From NCBI GenBank assembly GCA_037444305.1, contig JBBIMP010000023.1, positions 2,798-66,797 of the forward strand: a DNA stretch of 64,000 nucleotides, read 5' to 3'. The notes beneath the pieces were generated by a model, which saw nothing but the letters and a program-made list of their open reading frames with translations, did no database searches and was not told where the DNA came from. Made by a program: the position numbers and the translations under genes. Source of the DNA: Acidobacteriota bacterium. GTDB taxonomy: Bacteria; Acidobacteriota; UBA6911. Below are positions 2,729 through 53,820 of this stretch, one piece after another. Every line of letters starts with the position of its first letter. Within the stretch, counting starts at the first letter, position 1.

Positions 2729-3592
2729 TTATCGGGCACGGCTGCGGCGAGAGCAGTGGTAGAGGACGATGGCGGCCGCCGCCGCGACGTTGAGGGAATC
2801 GACCTCCCGCTGCATCGGGATTGCAATCCGAGCGTCGCATACGGAAAGCATTTCGGCGCTCAGCCCGCGCGCCTCGTTGCCGAACAGAAGCACTTCCCTG
2901 CCAGCCGGTTTCCACCCGTCGAGTTCCTGCGCGCGCTCATCGGCCACCGTTCCCACCAGTTGCCAGCCGTTCCCTGCTCTCAGCTTTTCGAGATCCCCGG
3001 CGAGGTCGGCGCATTCCCGGATCGGCAGGTGGAGCGCATTGCCCATGGAAACCCGCAAAATTCTGCGCGAAAAGGGATCGGGGCAGCCCGACCCGATCAG
3101 CAACCCGCCCACGCCGAAGGCCGCGCTCAAGCGGATGATGGCCCCGATGTTTTCCGGATCATCCACCCTCTCGCAGGCTGCGAGAAGCCCTCTCGATCTG
3201 CCCGCGCGCGCCATTTCCTCGAGAGACGGCTGCTCCTTCCGGCGCCCGCAGGCCATGATTCCCGCGTGGAATGCGAAACCGGTGAGGGTTGAGACGGATT
3301 GGTGCGGAATCACGTACCAGTCGAGCCCGGGTCGCAGCAGCGATGCGAACCGCGGCTCCTTGCGGTCGCTCACCATCACCGACACAACCTCAAAGTCGCT
3401 CTCCAGGAGCCGGTGCACGACCTTGTCACCCTCCGCGATGAAGAGACCGGCCTTGCGATCCAGCTTCGCCTGCTTGAGATCGCGGTAGGCATCCAGTCTC
3501 GGATCTTCGATCGAATCCAGCTCGATCCTCGCCACGCACCCTCCCCCGACTGCGAATCCGCAAAACCTATCCCGCATGCCGAATATGCGCAA
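2729..3592 (-). CDS. TrmH/SpoU-family RNA 2'-O-methyltransferase
   Basis: SpoU motifs DPENIGAIIRLSAAFGV, GNEARGLS and SLNVAAAAAIVLY. The true start is uncertain (a GTG near 3535 is possible). Confidence 0.7.
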   Translation of the reverse strand: MRIFGMRDRFCGFAVGGGCVARIELDSIEDPRLDAYRDLKQAKLDRKAGLFIAEGDKVVHRLLESDFEVVSVMVSDRKEPRFASLLRPGLDWYVIPHQSVSTLTGFAFHAGIMACGRRKEQPSLEEMARAGRSRGLLAACERVDDPENIGAIIRLSAAFGVGGLLIGSGCPDPFSRRILRVSMGNALHLPIRECADLAGDLEKLRAGNGWQLVGTVADERAQELDGWKPAGREVLLFGNEARGLSAEMLSVCDARIAIPMQREVDSLNVAAAAAIVLYHCSRRSRAR

Positions 3593-3921
3593 GCGGCAAC
3601 GGCGCCACTCTACCGTGTCTGCGAGTTATGACTTCCGGCCGGGCGCCCGCGGAGCCCGGAGCGCCAGCGACGGGTTGTCTGGCTTGAGTGGGCAACCCGA
3701 CCGCTCGCTGCCGCTCGCGGCTCCGTTTCCCCCGTGTCTTCAATACGGCTTTCCTTGGTTGCTGCCGCGGTGCGCTGCCCCCGAATTCATTGCGCTGTTC
3801 AGGGCGATCTTAACCCGGTATAGTGAAAAAGACAGGTCGAAATCCCGGGTGAACGCGAGGCGGACTCGCCGCCATCATGGACGCGCGCGCGATCGACCGC
3901 CGGGTCGCGCTCAATTGGCGT

Positions 3922-3988: not shown

Positions 3989-4291
3989 ATGGCAGAGGGA
4001 GCTGGAACTGGTGAGAAAGCGTTGTACTTCGTTCTTGGTGCATTTGTCGGTGCCGCCACCGCGCTCCTCCTGGCGCCCCGAAGCGGCGAGGAGACCCGGC
4101 AGTTGATCGTCTCCAAGGCCCGGGAGGGTGCCGACTACGTCTCGAACCGAAGCCGTGAGTTCACGGAGCGAACCTCCGGGATCATCGACCGGGGCAAAGA
4201 GCTGATACAGAGTCAGAGAGATCAGCTGACCGCTGCCCTGGAGGCCGGCAAGCAGGCGTACAAAGAAGAGAAGGACAAAGCAAAGGCATAG
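3989..4291 (+). CDS. YtxH-like protein (DUF948-associated)
   Basis: GAFVGAATALLLAPRSGEETRQ matches the YtxH signature. A strong RBS (AAAGGAGACAATATG) precedes the start. Confidence 0.55.
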   Translation: MAEGAGTGEKALYFVLGAFVGAATALLLAPRSGEETRQLIVSKAREGADYVSNRSREFTERTSGIIDRGKELIQSQRDQLTAALEAGKQAYKEEKDKAKA

Positions 4292-16575: not shown

Positions 16576-17334
16576 ATGGATCCCATATCAGCCACGCTCA
16601 TCACGCTCGACGAGGAAGACAACATCGAAGAGGCGCTGAAATCGGTCTCCTGGGCCGACGAAATCGTCGTCGTCGACGGCGGGAGCCGCGATGCCACCCT
16701 GGATATCTGCCGCCGGTATACGGACAGGATCTATCGCCGCGACTGGACGGGTTTCGTGGATCAGAAAAACCACGCTGTCGAGCGGGCCCGGCACGACTGG
16801 ATCTTCTCGCTGGATGCCGATGAACGCGTTGGTCCGGAGCTCAAGGCTGAGATCGAAGCCCTGCGGGGCCCGGGTCCCAGGTTTGCCGGATACCGCATCC
16901 CCAGGGTGGCGCACTTCATGGGGCGCTGGATCCGCCACGGCGACTGGCACCCGGATCGCCAGCTCCGCCTGTTCGACCGCAGGCGCGGGCGGTGGTGCGG
17001 CGGCCGGGTGCACGAATCCGTGCAGGTCGACGGGGAATGCGGCATCCTGCGCGGCGAAATACTGCACTACACTTATCGCAGCCTCTCGGATTACCTGGAC
17101 AGGCTCGAAACTTACTCCACGCTGGCGGCGCGGGATTACCAGGAAAGAGGAAAGGTGGCGACAGCCTGGAAGGTGGCGGCGAATCCTCCGGTTACCTTCC
17201 TCAAAGCCTACGTCCTCAAGCGCGGCTTCCTGGACGGGCTGCCGGGATTCATGGTGGCGTTCATGGGCTCCGTCTCGGTTTTCTTCAAGTATGCCAAGCT
17301 GCTCGAGTTGCAGCGGTCGCGCCGGGAGCGGTGA
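16576..17334 (+). CDS. Family 2 glycosyltransferase (WaaE/KdtX-like)
   Basis: ISATLITLDEEDNIEEAL ... EIVVVDGGSRDAT ... FSLDADER. It starts 2 nt after the preceding stop (an internal ATG of ORF 16018..17334). Confidence 0.8.
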   Translation: MDPISATLITLDEEDNIEEALKSVSWADEIVVVDGGSRDATLDICRRYTDRIYRRDWTGFVDQKNHAVERARHDWIFSLDADERVGPELKAEIEALRGPGPRFAGYRIPRVAHFMGRWIRHGDWHPDRQLRLFDRRRGRWCGGRVHESVQVDGECGILRGEILHYTYRSLSDYLDRLETYSTLAARDYQERGKVATAWKVAANPPVTFLKAYVLKRGFLDGLPGFMVAFMGSVSVFFKYAKLLELQRSRRER

Positions 17335-17349
17335 GGGCAGGAAAAAGCA

Positions 17350-17461
17350 TTACACGGAGTTCACGGAGAAGCACGGAGGTCCACGGAGAAAACCGCCGAA
17401 TGCGGGGCAGCAAAAGCCCGCTCTCTGTGGTTCTCAGTGCTTCTCCGTGAACTCCGTGTAA
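17350..17461. repeat. Composite repeat element: four phased 10-bp CACGGAG direct repeats flanked by a 25-bp perfect inverted repeat
   Basis: The decamers tACACGGAGt, tCACGGAGaa, gCACGGAGgt and cCACGGAGaa sit at 17351, 17361, 17371 and 17381. The left arm at 17350-17374 is the exact reverse complement of the right arm at 17437-17461. Confidence 0.6.
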
Positions 17462-17554
17462 CCGCCTTTCGTTCCATTACCGCAAGCCTCCTGCCCCGGC
17501 TGTGCTATATTATCCGCTTTAATCCGGACCCCCATTGAACGAAAGGCCGTAATC

Positions 17555-20346: not shown

Positions 20347-20814
20347 ATGAGCAAGCAGGGATCGGGCGAGAAACTCATCGCCTCCAACAAGAAGGCTTTT
20401 CACGACTACTTCATTCTCGAGAAAATCGAGGCCGGGATCTGCCTGCTCGGAACCGAGGTGAAGTCGCTCAGGGAGGGGCGGATCAATCTGAAAGACAGCT
20501 ACGCGGCCATCCGGGACGGGGAGCCCTGGCTGATCAACTGTCACATCAGCCCCTACTCGCACGGCAACCGCGAAAACCACGAGCCCGCACGCACGCGCAA
20601 GCTTCTGCTGCACAGCGGGGAGATCCGAAAGCTGATCGGCAAAACGCAGGAAAAGGGCCTGACCCTGATCCCGTTGCGCGTATACCTCGTGCGTGGAAAG
20701 GTAAAGATCGAGCTGGGCCTTGCCCGCGGCAAGAAGCTCTACGACAAGAGGGAGTCGGAGCGCCGAAAGGAATCCGACAGGGAAGCAAGAATCGCCATGA
20801 AGGCACGGCGCTAA
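20347..20814 (+). CDS. smpB: SsrA-binding protein
   Basis: [12 protein letters not shown] ... [10 protein letters not shown] ... LLLHSGEI ... [19 protein letters not shown]. Confidence 0.9.
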
Positions 20815-20832
20815 GCCGTCCGGGAGAGACAA

Positions 20833-22314
20833 ATGCGCATTGAATACCGGTCCCTGCACTATTTTGACGCCGATTGCGATCTCCTCGCGTACGTCATCTT
20901 CGAGGATGCAAAGCCGAAAGATGCGTCCCTGCAACGACTGAACCGCAAGGCCGGCAATCTGCCCGCCTCGCTGCTCGCCACGGGCGAATTCAAAGCCGAG
21001 CTGCACAAGACTTTTCTGCTCCACAGGCCGGCAGGGATGAAGGCCCGCAACCTGCTCCTGCTGGGGGGCGGTCCGCGGCAGGAGTTCGGCCTCGCCAGGC
21101 TCAGAGAGCTGGCGGGAAACGCCGCGCGCAACGCCCGCAGGGCAGGGTGCCGGCGGGTTGCCTTCCTTCTTCCCCAGGGCCTCCCGCCCGCCGACTGCGC
21201 GCGCGTGGCTGCCGAAGGGGCGTTGTATGGAAACTACGAGCCGGACGCCTACAAGACCAACGACAAAAAGACGCGGGAAGTCGAAGAATACGTTCTTCTG
21301 CTGGAAAAGGGCGGCAAGGCCGAGGAGCTCGCGGCTGCCATCGGGAAGGGCTGCATCGTCGGGAGCGCCACCAACCTCGCCCGCAATCTGGCCAATGACC
21401 CGGCCAATATCCTGACCCCGACGCGCCTGGCGGAGATCGCGGTCGTGGAAGGCAGGCAGGCGGGGCTCAAGGTGGAGGTCCTGGAGCGCGAGGAGATGGA
21501 GAAGCTGGGAATGAACACGCTGCTCGCCGTCAGCCGCGGCAGCGACGAACCGCCCAAGCTGATCGTGCTCGAGATCCCCGGAGAGAAAAAGAGCCAAAAG
21601 ACGCCGCTCGTCGCGCTGCTCGGCAAGGGCGTGACCTTCGACAGCGGCGGAATATCCCTGAAGCCCGGCGAGAAGATGGAGGAAATGAAGGCCGACATGG
21701 CCGGCGGCGCGGCCGTCCTGGGCGCCATGATCGCGCTCGCGCGCCTGGGGACGAAAAAGCCCGTCATCGGCCTGATCCCCGCGGTTGAAAACCTGCCGAG
21801 CGGAAAGGCGACAAAGCCGGGTGACGTGGTGAAGTCCCTCCTCGGCAAGACCGTCGAGATCATCAACACGGATGCGGAAGGCCGGCTGATCCTCGCGGAC
21901 GCGATCGCCTACGCGCGCCGCCGCGGGGCCACGCAGCTCGTCGACGTCGCCACCCTTACGGGAGCAGTAATCATCGCCCTCGGGAAGGTGAACGCCGGGA
22001 TGATGGGCACGGACCAGAAGACCCTCGACAGGCTGCGCACTAACTGCAGCATCACGGGCGAGAAGATGTGGCAACTCCCGCTCGACAAGGAATACCGCAA
22101 GGAACTGGAGAGCGAAGTCGCAGACATCAAAAACGTCGGCCCCCGCTGGGGCGGCGCGATCACAGCCGCGAAGTTCCTGGAGGAATTTGCCGAGGACACG
22201 CCGTGGGTCCACCTGGATATCGCCGGCATGGACCTGGACCACGACGAGCGGCCTTATGCCGCAAAGGGAGCCACGGGCTTTGGTGTGCGAACCCTCGTTC
22301 AGCTCCTGGTTTAA
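20833..22314 (+). CDS. pepA: Leucyl aminopeptidase (M17)
   Basis: NTDAEGRLILADA and GKGVTFDSGGISLKP are M17 signatures. Confidence 0.9.
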   Translation: MRIEYRSLHYFDADCDLLAYVIFEDAKPKDASLQRLNRKAGNLPASLLATGEFKAELHKTFLLHRPAGMKARNLLLLGGGPRQEFGLARLRELAGNAARNARRAGCRRVAFLLPQGLPPADCARVAAEGALYGNYEPDAYKTNDKKTREVEEYVLLLEKGGKAEELAAAIGKGCIVGSATNLARNLANDPANILTPTRLAEIAVVEGRQAGLKVEVLEREEMEKLGMNTLLAVSRGSDEPPKLIVLEIPGEKKSQKTPLVALLGKGVTFDSGGISLKPGEKMEEMKADMAGGAAVLGAMIALARLGTKKPVIGLIPAVENLPSGKATKPGDVVKSLLGKTVEIINTDAEGRLILADAIAYARRRGATQLVDVATLTGAVIIALGKVNAGMMGTDQKTLDRLRTNCSITGEKMWQLPLDKEYRKELESEVADIKNVGPRWGGAITAAKFLEEFAEDTPWVHLDIAGMDLDHDERPYAAKGATGFGVRTLVQLLV

Positions 22315-22337: not shown

Positions 22338-22491
22338 CCGGGAAGGAAAGCCGTATTGAAGGGATACGGCAAACGGAAGCCGCGAACGAAAGTGAGCGGT
22401 CAAGCGGCCCAATCGAGTTATGCGATCCGTCGCTGCCGCTCCGCTCCTGTGGAACTACTTTGCGCCTGCAAAAGATAGTGCGGACAGGCAG
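22338..22491 (+). repeat. Intergenic repeat, copy A (ccgtattgaaggga... family)
   Basis: About 85% identical over its alignable blocks to 43672-43865, and in the same orientation. It contains two hairpins with conserved stems. Confidence 0.5.
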
Positions 22492-22506: not shown

Positions 22507-23103
22507 CTACTCGATGACAACCGGTCCGCTTGCCTGCGCCGGCCGACGATGGAAGCCGACAGTCTCTTCGTAGGCCGCCGCTATCGCGGCCGCTGAAACC
22601 GGGATCGTGATCAGGAGGCCGACGCCCAGGAGCAGCAGCCCGACGAAATTGAGCAGCAGGAGGAGGACCGCGAAGAGCATGTATCCCAGGAGATCCTTGA
22701 GCACCAGCTTTCTGCTCGCCTCCATCGCGTCCCAGAAGGGCAGGTTCCGGTCCTCGAGGAAAATGTAGGAGAAGAGATAGAGGGCGGTGACGATCAGCGC
22801 GGGAAACACGCAAAGGACCAGGCCCGCCAGAGTGAAGGCCGCCACCAGGATATGGACCAGGAAGGCATCCACGAACTTGCCGAATCCGGCAAAAAGGTCC
22901 ATCAGGTCGGTGCGACCCTCAAGCATCCGGCGCCTCACGGCCAGGAACATCCCTGAGGCGAGCGGCCCCGCCACCACGAACGCCCCGACGCTCACGAGCG
23001 CAACGGCCACCAGCGCGATGAGCACGAAGTTGCCGATGTCCGCTTTCACAATCCGCCAGCCCATCCCGATCCACCGTCCCGGCGTCACGGCTGCGTTGAC
23101 CAT
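22507..23103 (-). CDS. Integral membrane protein of unknown function (4-5 TM)
   Basis: Hydrophobic helices throughout. I recognise no catalytic motif. Confidence 0.45.
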   Translation of the reverse strand: MVNAAVTPGRWIGMGWRIVKADIGNFVLIALVAVALVSVGAFVVAGPLASGMFLAVRRRMLEGRTDLMDLFAGFGKFVDAFLVHILVAAFTLAGLVLCVFPALIVTALYLFSYIFLEDRNLPFWDAMEASRKLVLKDLLGYMLFAVLLLLLNFVGLLLLGVGLLITIPVSAAAIAAAYEETVGFHRRPAQASGPVVIE

Positions 23104-26984: not shown

Positions 26985-27197
26985 TCCGGGTCCCTTGCCT
27001 GGGAGCGCAAAGAAATCTAGAATTCGAAAATTGAACCGGGAATCACGAGGTTAGCACAGAGAGACGGCCCGGTTGCCAACAAAAGCGTTTCATCGAGGCC
27101 GCGGAGAAAATATGAACCGTCCTGCCAGTTCCCCGCGCCTCTCTGTGGTTCCGAGGCGGTTCCTGCTGTCCCCAAACAGCCCAGGCGGCGAGGTCCT

Positions 27198-31898: not shown

Positions 31899-32393
31899 TT
31901 ACACTCCTGTCGAATGCCGTGCGGGCAGAGCGGCGGCCGGCAGCACGACCTGGGGCAACGGCTCGGCAAACACACTCACCGGCGCATCGGCCGGCACAGT
32001 CACCTCCCGGCCGTGCCCGACGCCGGAAGGCGTGCGCCGGTAGTGGCTGCGCACCTTCTGCGAGACAACATCCCAGAGTTCCGTCGCCGCCACCAGCTTT
32101 GCTCCGCGCAGGTCCAGAAGCGCCAACAGCGGCCGCAGCGCTGCCATGGACCTCGACAGGCAGCCGCATCGGTCGACCAGGAACGAGCTCCAGGGCCCCT
32201 CGAACCGCAGGGCCGCTCGCAGCCCCGTGCGGTCCATCAACGAACACTCCCGCGCCTCGTCCTCAAACCAGGCGATGATCTCGATTCCCTGCTGCCGGGC
32301 GTATTCCTCGATCCGGCGCCGCTGGTCGGCGCAGCACACCTCGCCGGATCCGGTGCAAGACGATATCGGGCTCACATATGCAATGGCCTTCAT
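31899..32393 (-). CDS. Small Cys-rich protein with a resolvase-N-terminal-like (flavodoxin-like) fold; paralog A1
   Basis: MKAIAYV ... VCCADQ ... LVDRCGCLSRS ... AATELWD. About 35-40% identical to the upstream paralog. Internal ATG at 32393 inside ORF 31899..32408. Confidence 0.5.
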   Translation of the reverse strand: MKAIAYVSPISSCTGSGEVCCADQRRRIEEYARQQGIEIIAWFEDEARECSLMDRTGLRAALRFEGPWSSFLVDRCGCLSRSMAALRPLLALLDLRGAKLVAATELWDVVSQKVRSHYRRTPSGVGHGREVTVPADAPVSVFAEPLPQVVLPAAALPARHSTGV

Positions 32394-32447
32394 GCCTCCT
32401 CCCTCCACGATGGTCAGGGGCGCGTTCCATCCGCGCCCCCGGCGGTT

Positions 32448-32927
32448 TCACAGGCCGGTCGGCTGCCGTACCAGAGCGGCGAAGTTGAGGCGGGCGGGCC
32501 GCTTCATTCCGATCCGATCCCGCACGGGCACGATCTGCGTGATCACGCAGGTCGGCGGCCGCAGCGCACCTTTGTGGAAGTGCCGCACCTGCTGCGAGAG
32601 GCAGTCCCACAGCTCGGTGGCCGACTGCAGCGCGACATTCTTTTCCTGCAACGCCTCCAGCAGCGGCCTCACCTCCGACAGGGACCTGCTGAAGCACCAG
32701 ATACGCTCCACCAGGATGAGGTCGTAGGAATCCGGGTGCGCCAGCATCGCCTTGACACCTGGACGCTCCACCACCGGCCCGTGGCAACCGTCATCTTCAA
32801 ACCGCGCCACGATCTCTATGCCGTGTGTCTTGGCGTACAGCTCAATCTGCTCGCGCTGCTCCTCGCAACAGATTTCGATATCGGTGTTGGGGATTCGAAT
32901 GCAGTTCACATAGGTGATGGCTTTCAT
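32448..32927 (-). CDS. Small Cys-rich protein with a resolvase-N-terminal-like (flavodoxin-like) fold; paralog A2
   Basis: MKAITYV ... ICCEEQ ... LVERIWCFSRS ... SATELWD. RBS AAGGAG 7 nt before the ATG at 32927 (inside ORF 32448..32972). Confidence 0.5.
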   Translation of the reverse strand: MKAITYVNCIRIPNTDIEICCEEQREQIELYAKTHGIEIVARFEDDGCHGPVVERPGVKAMLAHPDSYDLILVERIWCFSRSLSEVRPLLEALQEKNVALQSATELWDCLSQQVRHFHKGALRPPTCVITQIVPVRDRIGMKRPARLNFAALVRQPTGL

Positions 32928-32967
32928 CTTCTGTCTCCTTTTAGGGCTCGGTCCCCTCGCCTGCAAT

Positions 32968-32983
32968 AGCACGCTCCGTGCCA
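32968..32983 (-). promoter_or_regulatory. Candidate sigma-54 (-24/-12) promoter: TGGCACGGAGCGTGCT
   Basis: On the minus strand, the GG and GC elements have exactly the consensus spacing. It lies ~40 nt upstream of the A2 ATG and immediately downstream of a GAFTGA-type bEBP gene. Confidence 0.45.
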
Positions 32984-42764: not shown

Positions 42765-43634
42765 TCAGCGGATGGTTTTCGGTTGCCTGTCGCGGCGAAA
42801 TCCCTGAAATTCGTAGGTGATGCCCATCGCGAGTCCGGTATCGGGATCGTAGCGTTTCAGCCCGGCGATGCCGGCGAGGTCCCATCGGAGCCCGCCCGAC
42901 CGGATGCGCACTCCCAGCCGGATCCTCGACTGGTTTTCGTTGCCGACGCGTTCCGCACCCTGCCGCCCGTTGATTTCCCCCACAAGGTCTACCCTGGAAT
43001 GCAGCGGAACGGCCAGGCCAAAGCCATAGGTCAGCAGATCTGCCTGCGTGTTGGCCTGCACGGGCGATCCGAGGATGGCAATTCCGACGTTTCCGAGAAG
43101 TTGCGCCGGGCCAAGATGCTTCGAGGCCAGGATGCTGCCATAGAACGCCATCTCGTCGGTGCCCAGACCGCTCTCGTTGCCTGCGTTCGGGAGCTGCACC
43201 GCGAATTTGAAGGCCAGGGCGGGCTTTCTGCCCGTCTCCCGGGCCAGTCTGAGCTTCGCGGCGAGCAGAAGATCGCCAAAGTCGCTGGTGGCGTTGCCGT
43301 CGAAATCGGGCTTGATGACCGGGATTGTCCTGCGCGTCACCGAAAGAAAATCCCTGACGGTCCCCGATATCTGGAACTCCGCGTACTCCCCGACCCCTAT
43401 GTGGATCCCGCCGACTCCCAGGCGCGTGAGGTCGCCTTCCAGGCCGGACAGCGAGTATCGCTGGTTCTGGAAAAACTCCACGCCCATCTGCAGCCGGATC
43501 CGGCCGACGGGCAGCAGTTCGGCCGCGTCGGTTGCGAGGGGGCGTTCCTGTGAGTGGAGGGGCACAGCCAGGAACAGCAGGAAAACTGCGGCCGGCAAAG
43601 ATTTGTACACCGGTGAGCACCTCGGAACCATCAA
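42765..43634 (-). CDS. Secreted putative outer-membrane beta-barrel protein of unknown function
   Basis: A signal peptide, alternating amphipathic beta-strand patterning, and an aromatic near the C-terminus. Confidence 0.4.
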   Translation of the reverse strand: MMVPRCSPVYKSLPAAVFLLFLAVPLHSQERPLATDAAELLPVGRIRLQMGVEFFQNQRYSLSGLEGDLTRLGVGGIHIGVGEYAEFQISGTVRDFLSVTRRTIPVIKPDFDGNATSDFGDLLLAAKLRLARETGRKPALAFKFAVQLPNAGNESGLGTDEMAFYGSILASKHLGPAQLLGNVGIAILGSPVQANTQADLLTYGFGLAVPLHSRVDLVGEINGRQGAERVGNENQSRIRLGVRIRSGGLRWDLAGIAGLKRYDPDTGLAMGITYEFQGFRRDRQPKTIR

Positions 43635-43671
43635 GCGTTACACGAAGTAACAGAGCGCAGCATGGCCGCAA

Positions 43672-43895
43672 CCGGGCAAGGCCGTATTGAAGGGACGCGG
43701 CAAGCGGAGCCGCGAACGCCAGTGAGCGGTTTGGCAACCAAACCCGTCGCTATTGCTCCGGGCTCCGTTGAATCCCGGCCGGCAATCAGAAACGGCGGAA
43801 GGAGCAACCCTCAACCGTTCCCGCGAAATTTCTCCGCGTACAAAAAAGATGCCTCTGACTGGCAGTTCAGATTAACACGGAGATTCACGGAGAGC
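43672..43895 (+). repeat. Intergenic repeat, copy B (composite): the ccgtattgaaggga module, a caaaaagat...ggcag module, and two CACGGAG decamers
   Basis: It aligns block-wise to 22338-22491, and its 3' end aligns to the 17340-17371 element. Confidence 0.5.
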
Positions 43896-43896
43896 T

Positions 43897-44673
43897 TCAT
43901 TTGTTTCCAGTGCGGCCCGCCGTATCGTTGTCCGCTCTCTTGTCTAGCGCTGCCAATTCGTGTTGCACAATCGCCACCGCCGCCAGCGATGCGGTCTCTG
44001 CGCGGAGAGTGTGCCTGCCCAGGCTGAAGCTCTCAAATCCGGCGTCTGTCGCCGCGTCCTCCTCCGCCGGATCCCAGCCCCCTTCCGGGCCCACGCACAG
44101 GACGACTCTATCCGGCGCACACGGTCCCAGCGACAAGCGCTTCACGGCTTTGGGCGAAAGTAGAAGGCGAATGCCGGCTTTCCTTCCCTCCCCGTCGACG
44201 AAGTCCACGAAGGTGTGCGGCGCGGTCACGGCGGGCGCCTCGTTGCGTCCGCACTGCTTGCAGGCCTCCTGGACGATGCGCCGCCACCTCTGCATCCGGG
44301 ATTCGAGCCGCTTGCCCGGGATGCGGGCGCTTCCGCGCCGGGTAATGAGCGGCACGAACTCATTTATGCCGAGTTCCGTCCCCTTCTGCAGAATCCACTC
44401 GAAGCGGTCCGGCTTTATCAGCGCAGCAGCCAGCACCACGGCAGCCGGCGTGGCATCACCCGACGATACCCGTTGCAGATTTGTCAGGCGCACCGTCTCT
44501 CCCTGTATCTCCACCGTGCCGGCATGGCTTTCGCCGGTTCCGTCGAATATCTCCACCTCCTCACCGGCTCGGATCCGCAAAACGTGGCGCAGGTGGTGGG
44601 ATTGATCCGCGGGCAGTACGGCGTGGTCGCCCCGGAAGAGAACGGCGGGTACAAAAAATCGTCTGCGCGCCAT
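43897..44673 (-). CDS. rsmE: 16S rRNA (uracil1498-N3)-methyltransferase
   Basis: RRFFV ... a PUA-like N-terminus, and SPOUT motifs (LCVGPEGGW, LGRHTLRAETA). Confidence 0.85.
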   Translation of the reverse strand: MARRRFFVPAVLFRGDHAVLPADQSHHLRHVLRIRAGEEVEIFDGTGESHAGTVEIQGETVRLTNLQRVSSGDATPAAVVLAAALIKPDRFEWILQKGTELGINEFVPLITRRGSARIPGKRLESRMQRWRRIVQEACKQCGRNEAPAVTAPHTFVDFVDGEGRKAGIRLLLSPKAVKRLSLGPCAPDRVVLCVGPEGGWDPAEEDAATDAGFESFSLGRHTLRAETASLAAVAIVQHELAALDKRADNDTAGRTGNK

Positions 44674-53764: not shown

Positions 53765-53820
53765 AAAGGGGGACAGGCTACCGTGTCCCTCTGGAGGGAC
53801 ACGGTAGCCTGTCCCCCTTT
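53765..53820. terminator. Perfect 26-bp-stem hairpin with a 4-nt loop, flanked by A-rich 5' and T-rich 3' sequence (a bidirectional intrinsic-terminator-like structure)
   Basis: AAAGGGGGACAGGCTACCGTGTCCCT-ctgg-AGGGACACGGTAGCCTGTCCCCCTTT, then TTTGATT. Confidence 0.6.

What the first reader, a model, noticed from the sequence alone, without database searches (positions are those of the whole stretch)
22338..22491. Structured intergenic repeat (copy A) downstream of pepA, with a second copy at 43672-43865
The segment ccgggaaggaaagCCGTATTGAAGGGATACGGcaaacggaaGCCGCgaacgaaagtgaGCGGT... reappears in the same orientation at 43672 with ~85% identity. The flanking blocks also align (ccgtcgctgccgctccg versus ccgtcgctattgctccg, and gcaaaagatagtgcggacaggcag versus acaaaaaagatgcctctgactggcag).

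Both hairpin stems (CCGUA/UACGG and GCCGC/GCGGU) are preserved, while the loops and one stem position vary (U-A becomes U-G). This is the signature of a structured RNA or a REP/MITE-like family. The element does not resemble tRNA, tmRNA, RNase P, 6S or SRP RNA.
Basis: seen in the sequence. Interest (0 to 1): 0.6.

Follow-up and report, generated by a model that had tools for sequence, protein, structure and literature searches.

The report
Lineage-specific hairpin-forming intergenic repeat family
The repeat is real and has three copies in this window, not two; it is most likely a small non-coding interspersed repeat private to one poorly sampled Acidobacteriota lineage, an ordinary kind of bacterial feature, and the evidence for a structured RNA is weak.

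Summary
Copy A (22343-22443, +) and copy B (43654-43791, +) share a 54-nt block at 87% identity (E 8e-11).

It matches A at E 2e-16 and B at E 2e-20. nhmmer and a covariance model with filters off find no other copy in the window.

All copies share:
- an invariant 5' box, GCCGTATTGAAG;
- a small hairpin, GCCGC-GA-RC-GNNA-GY-GA-GCGGU;
- a long imperfect palindrome, CGGAGCC...AGYGAGCGG / CCGTCGCT...GCTCCG.

The palindrome is nearly perfect in C (ssDNA fold z = -4.7) and decayed in A and B. Only one base pair shows a double change, which 161 of 500 shuffles also reach.

The copies sit in intergenic DNA in no fixed orientation to their neighbours. Syntenic relatives lack the element. A k=31 assembly of the same sample breaks inside all three copies.

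There are no matches in Rfam, and none in the genome, metagenome, viral, plasmid or phage collections searched. MITE and REP defining features were not met.

Best reading: a new, lineage-private interspersed palindromic repeat, probably selfish or neutral DNA. A small-RNA family is not excluded. Interest is low to moderate.

The parts
22343..22443 (+). Copy A, the shortest copy. It has a 1-nt insertion (CGGAAGCC) and lacks the second GGCTCCG...CCCGGCCGG segment. It lies between the convergent genes pepA (20833-22314, +) and a 198-aa membrane protein (22507-23103, -).
   Evidence: blastn to C: 101 nt at 76%, E 2e-16. blastn to B: 54 nt at 87%, E 8e-11. nhmmer E 6.5e-32. CM 118 bits. Gene context.
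43654..43791 (+). Copy B. It lies between rsmE (43897-44673, -) and a 281-aa outer-membrane-like gene (42765-43610, -), so it is antisense to both neighbours.
   Evidence: blastn to C: 151 nt at 72%, E 2e-20. nhmmer E 1.2e-36. CM 112.5 bits. Gene context.
3626..3776 (-). It is the longest copy and has the best palindrome. It lies in the divergent region between a SpoU/TrmH methyltransferase (2729-3535, -) and ytxH (3989-4291, +), and is sense to SpoU.
   Evidence: nhmmer E 1.7e-40. CM 123.8 bits. Gene context.
22350..22370 (+). 5' box GCCGTATTGAAG, invariant in all three copies, together with hairpin 1 (GCCGTAT/ATACGGC in A). Equivalent positions are B 43681-43701 and C 3749-3729 (-).
   Evidence: Hairpin 1 is 81% paired overall and decays in B and C.
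22379..22400 (+). Hairpin 2: GCCGC-GA-RC-GNNA-GY-GA-GCGGT. It has a 5-bp stem, a possible tandem G.A, 2 bp, and loops GAAA (A), GCCA (B) and GGCA (C). Equivalent positions are B 43709-43730 and C 3721-3700 (-).
   Evidence: 100% of cells are paired, with one A-U to G-C double change in C.
22427..22443 (+). 3' arm CCGTCGCT-nnn-GCTCCG. It is complementary to AGYGA(G)CGG and to CGGAGC of the 5' arm, forming the long imperfect palindrome around a variable apical hairpin. Equivalent positions are B 43744-43767 and C 3673-3650 (-).
   Evidence: Opposite-strand self-matches. 100% of cells are paired in the long-hairpin model. ssDNA fold of C: -30.3 kcal/mol, z -4.7; B z -1.9; A z -1.6.

Best explanation
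This is a non-coding interspersed repeat of about 100-150 bp, private to this Acidobacteriota lineage. Each copy has a strictly conserved non-palindromic 5' box (AAGGAAAGCCGTATTGAAG), followed by a long imperfect palindrome of two ~25-nt arms around a variable apical hairpin.

Most likely mechanism (inferred, not shown): it is or was a non-autonomous mobile DNA element, copied into intergenic spacers by a trans-acting enzyme that recognises the 5' box and the DNA hairpin. Copies then decay by point mutation and deletion. Where a copy happens to be transcribed as part of a neighbour's UTR, its GC-rich hairpin could incidentally impede read-through or exonucleases.

Shown here:
- repetition and copy anatomy;
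- intergenic placement in mixed orientations;
- absence from the same sites in syntenic relatives;
- a gradient of palindrome decay among the copies;
- assembly breaks inside every copy.

Inferred only: mobility, total copy number in the genome, and the identity of any mobilising enzyme.
For: **Three copies and no more**
- Pairwise E-values are 8e-11 to 2e-20.
- nhmmer --max and a covariance model with filters off find no others in the window.
- None was found in a further ~9.5 kb of the same contig.

**No fixed relation to genes**
- A lies between convergent genes.
- B is antisense to both co-directional neighbours.
- C lies in a divergent region and is sense to SpoU.

**Decay rather than compensation**
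- Copy C has a near-perfect 25-bp hairpin (ssDNA z -4.7; 0 of 200 shuffles fold as well).
- Copies B and A are eroded (z -1.9 and -1.6).
- A also carries a 1-nt indel and a deletion.

**Syntenic relatives lack it**
- L045 (dnaK-dnaJ-rsmE-286 aa protein) has a 196-nt spacer without the element.
- L050 (smpB-pepA | 226 aa-pdxA-hfq) has a 102-nt spacer, against 192 nt here, and holds an unrelated hairpin of its own.
- About 140 kb of DNA from relatives gives no nhmmer or CM hit.

**Assembly behaviour**
- The k=31 Logan assembly of SRR11582151 ends contigs inside all three copies: 22373/22347, 43726/43756 and 3719/3699.
- The three copies share no k-mer of 21 nt or longer with each other.
- This fits further near-identical copies elsewhere in the sample, or strain polymorphism at these sites.

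**Not coding**
- The only shared ORF start gives peptides of 41, 12 and 75 aa whose frame is broken by the indel.
Against: - Only three copies could be examined, so a high copy number is inferred indirectly.
- No terminal inverted repeats or target-site duplications were found.
- No transposase lies in the window. The only recombinase-like genes are two small resolvase-domain ORFs about 9 kb away from the nearest copy.
- No empty site was seen in a close relative, because none exists in the databases. The best PepA homologue is 67% identical and the best RsmE homologue 55%.
- The most conserved part is a non-palindromic 12-mer, and hairpin 2 has RNA-like features (a GNNA loop, a possible tandem G.A, and one compensatory pair). 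These would also fit a functional RNA or a protein-binding site.
Confidence: 0.55

Rival explanations
1. It is a family of paralogous small structured RNAs (an sRNA gene family), transcribed from the strand given by the first reader. The RNA would fold into hairpin 1, hairpin 2 (a GNNA loop with tandem G.A) and a third variable hairpin, closed by CGGA/UCCG.
For: - Hairpin 2 is 100% paired in all copies, with one A-U to G-C double change.
- The loops GAAA, GCCA and GGCA all fit GNNA, and the flanking GA/GA could form tandem sheared pairs (read from the sequence).
- The apical hairpin differs in sequence between copies but still pairs in each.
- The structure is 93% paired, against 28-44% when the partners are slid.
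Against: - The one double change is reached by 161 of 500 shuffles. A and B share it, so it is at most one evolutionary event.
- RNA fold z-scores are -0.5 to -1.7 and no better on one strand than on the other.
- No sigma-70-like promoter was found, and no terminator was found on the proposed strand.
- Hairpin 1 decays in B and C.
- There is no Rfam match, even at E up to 10.
- The element is absent from relatives at family-level distance.
Confidence: 0.2
2. It is a host-serving cis element: a hairpin that acts as a terminator or as an mRNA 3'-end stabiliser or insulator between genes, read on the strand opposite to the one the first reader proposed.
For: - On the opposite strand, hairpin 1 is followed by TTTCCTT in A and CTTTCCTT in C, and was picked up by the terminator scan.
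- In that orientation, A follows the membrane-protein/pdxA/hfq genes and B follows dnaK-dnaJ-rsmE.
- Relatives carry unrelated long hairpins at the same pepA-downstream site. This suggests the site tolerates or needs a hairpin.
Against: - Copy B has no T-rich tail, and the scan found nothing there.
- Terminator-like hits are no more frequent than in shuffles: 1 found against 0.4-0.5 expected.
- Copy C lies between divergent genes, where there is nothing upstream to terminate.
- The conserved 5' box is not explained by this reading.
Confidence: 0.15
3. It is a DNA binding site for a regulator or nucleoid-associated protein that recognises the invariant GCCGTATTGAAG box.
For: The 12-mer is the only stretch that is invariant in all three copies, while its supposed pairing partner varies.
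Against: - The neighbouring genes are functionally unrelated: pepA, rsmE, an outer-membrane-like gene, SpoU and ytxH.
- One copy lies between two 3' ends, where a promoter-proximal operator makes no sense.
- About 100 nt of flanking homology is far more than an operator needs.
Confidence: 0.05
4. It encodes a short basic peptide that starts at TTG, 8 nt after an AAGGA Shine-Dalgarno-like sequence.
For: AAGGAAAG-N5-TTG is conserved. The first residues are MK(G/T)(Y/R)GKR in all copies.
Against: - The ORF lengths are 41, 12 and 75 aa.
- A 1-nt indel shifts the frame in A after 7 codons.
- A six-frame peptide query found no protein in 5.8 billion clusters, even at E up to 10.
Confidence: 0.02

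Closest known systems
REPIN / REP doublets (repetitive extragenic palindromes mobilised by RAYT tyrosine transposases)
   Same: - A short non-coding intergenic repeat.
- Two inverted arms around a variable spacer form a hairpin of about 70-100 nt.
- Copies occur in either orientation, often between convergent genes.
- Copies show different degrees of decay.
   Different: - There is no unpaired GTAG or CGTC tag next to a short 8-9 bp stem-loop as described in PMC3733652. CGTC occurs here, but inside the paired arm.
- There is an extra, strongly conserved non-palindromic 5' box of about 20 nt.
- No RAYT or Y1 transposase was seen.
- The copy number is unknown.
MITEs and ERIC-like elements (for example Correia, ERIC, RUP)
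   Same: - Size of 100-200 bp.
- Intergenic, co-transcribed with neighbours in either orientation.
- Imperfect palindromic core.
- Causes assembly breaks.
   Different: - No terminal inverted repeats or target-site duplications were detected.
- The palindrome is internal, not terminal.
- No parent insertion sequence was identified.
IS200/IS605-type palindrome-associated elements (PATEs), whose sub-terminal hairpins are recognised as single-stranded DNA
   Same: - No terminal inverted repeats and no target-site duplication.
- Asymmetric ends with conserved hairpins.
- A strand-specific architecture, which would fit the conserved 5' box plus hairpin.
   Different: - No TnpA or TnpB gene was found in the window.
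- No conserved tetra- or pentanucleotide target was seen at the left flank of the three copies.
- This resemblance is a lead only. It was not tested beyond these two points.
Group II intron domain V (ai5-gamma D5: GAGCCGUAU...GUACGGUUC), recalled from memory
   Same: The 5' box AGCCGUAU...AUACGGC resembles the lower helix of domain V.
   Different: - The hairpin has 7 bp and a 7-nt loop, not the 34-nt bulged domain V.
- The Rfam group II intron model did not match even at E up to 10.
- No reverse-transcriptase ORF is present.
- Rejected as coincidence.

Membership tests
REP / REPIN | A short stem-loop (8-9 bp or similar) with an unpaired GTAG or CGTC tetranucleotide at one end (PMC3733652) | tested here: not met
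   There is no GTAG at any hairpin foot. CGTC is present (CCGTCGCT), but it lies within the paired 3' arm of a ~25-nt arm and not next to an 8-9 bp stem with a 4-5 nt loop.
REP / REPIN | Inverted doublet of repeat units forming a long hairpin | tested here: met
   There are opposite-strand self-matches. The ssDNA hairpin of C has z -4.7.
REP / REPIN | An associated RAYT (Y1 / HUH transposase) gene in the genome, and tens to hundreds of copies | not testable with these tools
   Only one 79-kb contig of the MAG could be reached. The parts of it that were read contain no such gene. Copy number is inferred only from the assembly breaks.
MITE | Terminal inverted repeats | tested here: not met
   The best terminal complementarity is 0.47-0.62, against a shuffle mean of 0.52 and maximum of 0.91. 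The boundaries are approximate.
MITE | Target-site duplication flanking each copy | tested here: inconclusive
   No shared direct repeat is seen at the homology boundaries of A, B and C, but the boundaries are defined by only three copies.
MITE | Presence/absence polymorphism at otherwise conserved sites | tested here: inconclusive
   The element is absent at the syntenic sites of L045 and L050. However, these relatives are distant (PepA 66-67% identity, RsmE 52%), so spacer turnover explains the absence equally well.
Any Rfam RNA family | A covariance-model score at or above the family's gathering threshold | tested here: not met
   There are 0 matches in the whole window. With E up to 10, the three loci give only scattered hits at or below 19 bits, far below threshold.
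Structured non-coding RNA (new family) | Statistically supported covariation in the proposed helices | tested here: inconclusive
   There are only 3 sequences. One pair shows a double change, which 161 of 500 shuffles reach. All other pairs are invariant or change on one side only.
Intrinsic terminator | A GC-rich hairpin followed by a T tract, downstream of a co-directional gene | tested here: inconclusive
   There are weak matches on the opposite strand in A and C and none in B, and they are not enriched over shuffles. Copy C has no upstream co-directional gene.

The most novel reading that the evidence does not exclude
The element is a previously undescribed structured small RNA family, or the RNA/DNA scaffold of a new hairpin-recognising mobile system, restricted to an Acidobacteriota lineage with no sequenced close relatives. 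Under this reading, the conserved 5' box and the GNNA/tandem-GA hairpin would be functional RNA motifs rather than relics.
Probability: 0.15. Interest if true: 0.5.

Novelty: new member of a known kind. Interest (0 to 1): 0.25.

Why it matters
If the best reading is right, this adds one more private family to the many bacterial interspersed intergenic repeats.

- It has practical value for assembly and binning, because it fragments k=31 assemblies.
- It could serve as a strain marker for this lineage.
- It is a small data point on how intergenic "safe sites" in Acidobacteriota fill with lineage-specific hairpin elements. For example, the spacer downstream of pepA holds a different hairpin in each lineage examined.

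It would matter more only if many copies show real covariation or discrete transcripts, or if a dedicated enzyme that recognises the 5' box and hairpin is found.

Tried and rejected
**External copies sought and not found**
- A genome-contig scan with GCCGTATTGAAGNNNNNNGGNAANCGG gave 8 unrelated single hits, none carrying the second half of the element.
- A metagenome-contig scan with GCCGTATTGAAGN{14,16}AGCCGCGA gave 25 loci, all chance matches inside unrelated coding sequence.
- A viral-contig scan gave 2 chance matches.
- blastn in distant mode against plasmids and phages found nothing.
- A concatenated six-frame peptide query, meant to catch spurious ORFs called over other copies, gave 0 hits at E up to 10.

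**Readings rejected**
- Known RNA families: rejected by Rfam.
- tRNA or tmRNA next to smpB: ARAGORN found nothing in the window.
- Group II intron domain V likeness of AGCCGUAU...AUACGGC: rejected, because Rfam gives no match and the geometry is wrong.
- CsrA-type GGA decoy: the loop GGA is not conserved in copy C.
- ECF or sigma-54 promoter motifs: the spacings do not fit (read from the sequence).
- Diversity-generating retroelement template/variable repeats: the differences are not adenine-specific and the copies are not in coding sequence.
- The copies as ends of an island: synteny with L050 runs straight through the copy A site.
- Small ORF: rejected by the frame shift.

**Not resolved**
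- RNAalifold on three sequences gave an unconvincing consensus with a positive covariation term.

Full report

Yes, for the core.
- Copy A (around 22350-22400) and copy B (43681-43730) share 54 nt at 87% identity, E 8e-11.
- A 27-nt degenerate pattern taken from them matches only these two places, against none in 100 dinucleotide-preserving shuffles.
- The block CCGTCGCT-nnn-GCTCCG is also shared.
It is not significant on its own.

A search with the second half of the core found a third copy on the minus strand. This is copy C, about 3626-3776.
- It aligns with A over 101 nt (76%, E 2e-16) and with B over 151 nt (72%, E 2e-20).
- nhmmer with all filters off and a covariance model with filters off find these three and nothing else in 64 kb, apart from their own opposite-strand self-matches.

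**2. Anatomy**

Each copy has, in order:
- AAGGAAAG, then the invariant 12-mer GCCGTATTGAAG, which starts a small hairpin (hairpin 1).
- CGG(A)AGCC.
- Hairpin 2: GCCGC-GA-RC-GNNA-GY-GA-GCGGT.
- A variable apical hairpin: GGTTTGG/CCAAACC in B, GGGTTG/CAACCC in C, and only ATCG/CGAT in A.
- CCGTCGCT-nnn-GCTCCG.
- In B and C only, a further GGCTCCG...CCCGGCCGG.

The stretch from CGGAGCC to GCTCCG is an imperfect palindrome. This is why the profile and the covariance model also hit the opposite strand at B and C.

Folded as single-stranded DNA, the palindrome differs sharply between copies:

| Copy | Fold | z-score | Shuffles folding as well |
|---|---|---|---|
| C | -30.3 kcal/mol | -4.7 | 0 of 200 |
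| B | -16.0 kcal/mol | -1.9 | 7 of 200 |
| A | -15.7 kcal/mol | -1.6 | 10 of 200 |

A also has a 1-nt insertion and lacks the distal segment.

**3. Structure tests**

Two models were counted on the three-copy alignment: local hairpin 2 inside a CGGA/UCCG closing stem, and the long hairpin.
- Both are about 93% paired, against 28-46% when partners are slid. Nearly every pair is invariant.
- The only double change (A-U in A and B, G-C in C) is reached by 161 of 500 shuffles.
- Hairpin 1 loses pairs in B and C.
- RNA folds of either strand are not better than shuffles, z -0.5 to -1.7.
- RNAalifold gave a positive (penalising) covariation term.

Hairpin 2 does look RNA-like. It has a GNNA loop, a possible tandem G.A and a G.U closing pair. 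With three sequences this is only a lead.

**4. Context**

The window is contig CAZIEJ010000011.1 of MAG GCA_964538715.1.
- Copy A fills the 192-nt spacer between the convergent genes pepA and a 198-aa membrane protein.
- Copy B fills the spacer between rsmE and a 281-aa outer-membrane-like gene. Both are on the minus strand, so B is antisense to both.
- Copy C lies between the divergent genes SpoU/TrmH and ytxH. It ends just before the SpoU ribosome-binding site and is sense to SpoU.

No orientation rule fits all three copies.
- No sigma-70-like promoter was found.
- The only terminator-like hits are on the opposite strand at hairpin 1 of A and C, and they are no more frequent than in shuffles.
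- No conserved ORF exists. The only shared start gives peptides of 41, 12 and 75 aa, with the frame broken by the indel in A.
- No transposase lies in the parts of the contig that were read. Two small resolvase-domain ORFs lie about 9 kb from copy A.

**5. Elsewhere**

- Rfam gives nothing at gathering thresholds for the window, and nothing meaningful at E up to 10 for the three loci.
- ARAGORN finds no tRNA or tmRNA.
- Exact-pattern scans of 185,579 species genomes, of JGI metagenomes and of IMG/VR returned only chance matches in unrelated coding sequence.
- Plasmid and phage blastn found nothing.
- A six-frame peptide query found no called protein.

The lineage is isolated. The best RsmE homologue is 55% identical and the best PepA homologue 67%, with Acidobacteriota/Terriglobia source names.

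Syntenic relatives lack the element.
- L045 keeps dnaK-dnaJ-rsmE followed by a 286-aa gene, with a 196-nt spacer of unrelated sequence.
- L050 keeps the whole GWxTD...smpB-pepA | membrane protein-pdxA-hfq block. Its spacer is 102 nt and holds an unrelated hairpin built from AATGACA-type heptamers.
- L053 has yet another long palindrome after pepA.
- About 140 kb of DNA from relatives gave no nhmmer or CM hit.

**6. Assembly behaviour**

The Logan (k=31) assembly of the same sample, SRR11582151, ends contigs inside every copy:
- A: 22373 (left contig end) and 22347 (right contig start).
- B: 43726 and 43756.
- C: 3719 and 3699.

By my rough estimate there are about nine breakpoints in the window, and the three cores cover about 0.6% of it. 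The coincidence is therefore unlikely by chance, on the order of 1e-5.

The three copies share no k-mer of 21 nt or longer with each other. The breaks therefore point to further, closer copies elsewhere in the sample, or to strain polymorphism at these sites. Either fits a repeat family better than three fixed RNA genes.

**7. Interpretation**

The pattern is:
- a private family;
- intergenic only;
- mixed orientations;
- one near-perfect palindromic copy and two eroded ones;
- no compensation;
- absence at syntenic sites;
- assembly breaks.

This is what a young or decaying non-autonomous interspersed repeat looks like. I rate that reading at 0.55.

It is not a demonstrable member of the REP/REPIN or MITE families.
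- Terminal inverted repeats are absent, and no target duplications were found.
- The tag-plus-short-stem geometry of REPs (PMC3733652) is not met.
- No partner enzyme could be looked for outside this contig.

An asymmetric element with a conserved box plus hairpin and no terminal repeats works most like the single-strand hairpin-recognised elements (REPIN, IS200/IS605-type). That is a resemblance, not a tested membership.

The rivals:

| Rival | Confidence |
|---|---|
| sRNA family | 0.2 |
| Co-opted terminator or stabiliser hairpin | 0.15 |
| Protein-binding site | 0.05 |
| Small ORF | 0.02 |

**8. Verdict**

This is a real repeat, larger as a family than reported (three copies). It is uncharacterised and lineage-specific, but of an ordinary kind. 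Interest is 0.25, and novelty is a new member of a known kind. The whole MAG and its reads would settle copy number, boundaries, mobility and covariation quickly.

Noticed in passing
window 17345-17465; 43873-43895; about 27050-27160: There is a second, unrelated intergenic hairpin family built from tandem CACGGAG units. At 17.4 kb, arms at 17328-17389 and 17422-17483 are 79% complementary. A half-unit, CACGGAGATTCACGGAG, sits directly beside copy B. A CACAGAGAG...CTCTCTGTGGTT inverted repeat lies at 27.1 kb, and by my calculation from contig lengths the Logan contigs leave a gap there too (27088-27187)..
   Followed up: partly
window 53765-53820: A perfect 27-bp inverted repeat with a 2-nt spacer (AAAGGGGGACAGGCTACCGTGTCCCTC TG GAGGGACACGGTAGCCTGTCCCCCTTT) is flanked by A and T runs. 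It lies between the divergent htrA-like gene and a 214-aa gene.
   Followed up: no
L050 11489-11590; L053 7175-7516: In relatives, the spacer downstream of pepA holds different long hairpins built from short tandem units: AATGACA/AATGACC heptamers in L050, and GGGATCG/GTATCG-type units in L053. The same site is filled by a different palindromic element in each lineage.
   Followed up: partly
window 31899-32408 and 32448-32972 (minus strand): Two adjacent small ORFs (169 and 174 aa) match only the resolvase N-terminal domain, PF00239. They are not adjacent to any copy of the element.
   Followed up: no
window 20347-22314: smpB lies directly upstream of pepA, yet ARAGORN and Rfam find no tmRNA gene and no tRNA anywhere in the 64-kb window.
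   Followed up: yes
whole window: The organism has no close relative in the protein collection searched. The best PepA homologue is 67% identical and the best RsmE homologue 55%, with a flat distribution of hits named Acidobacteriota/Terriglobia. This limits every comparative test made here.
   Followed up: yes
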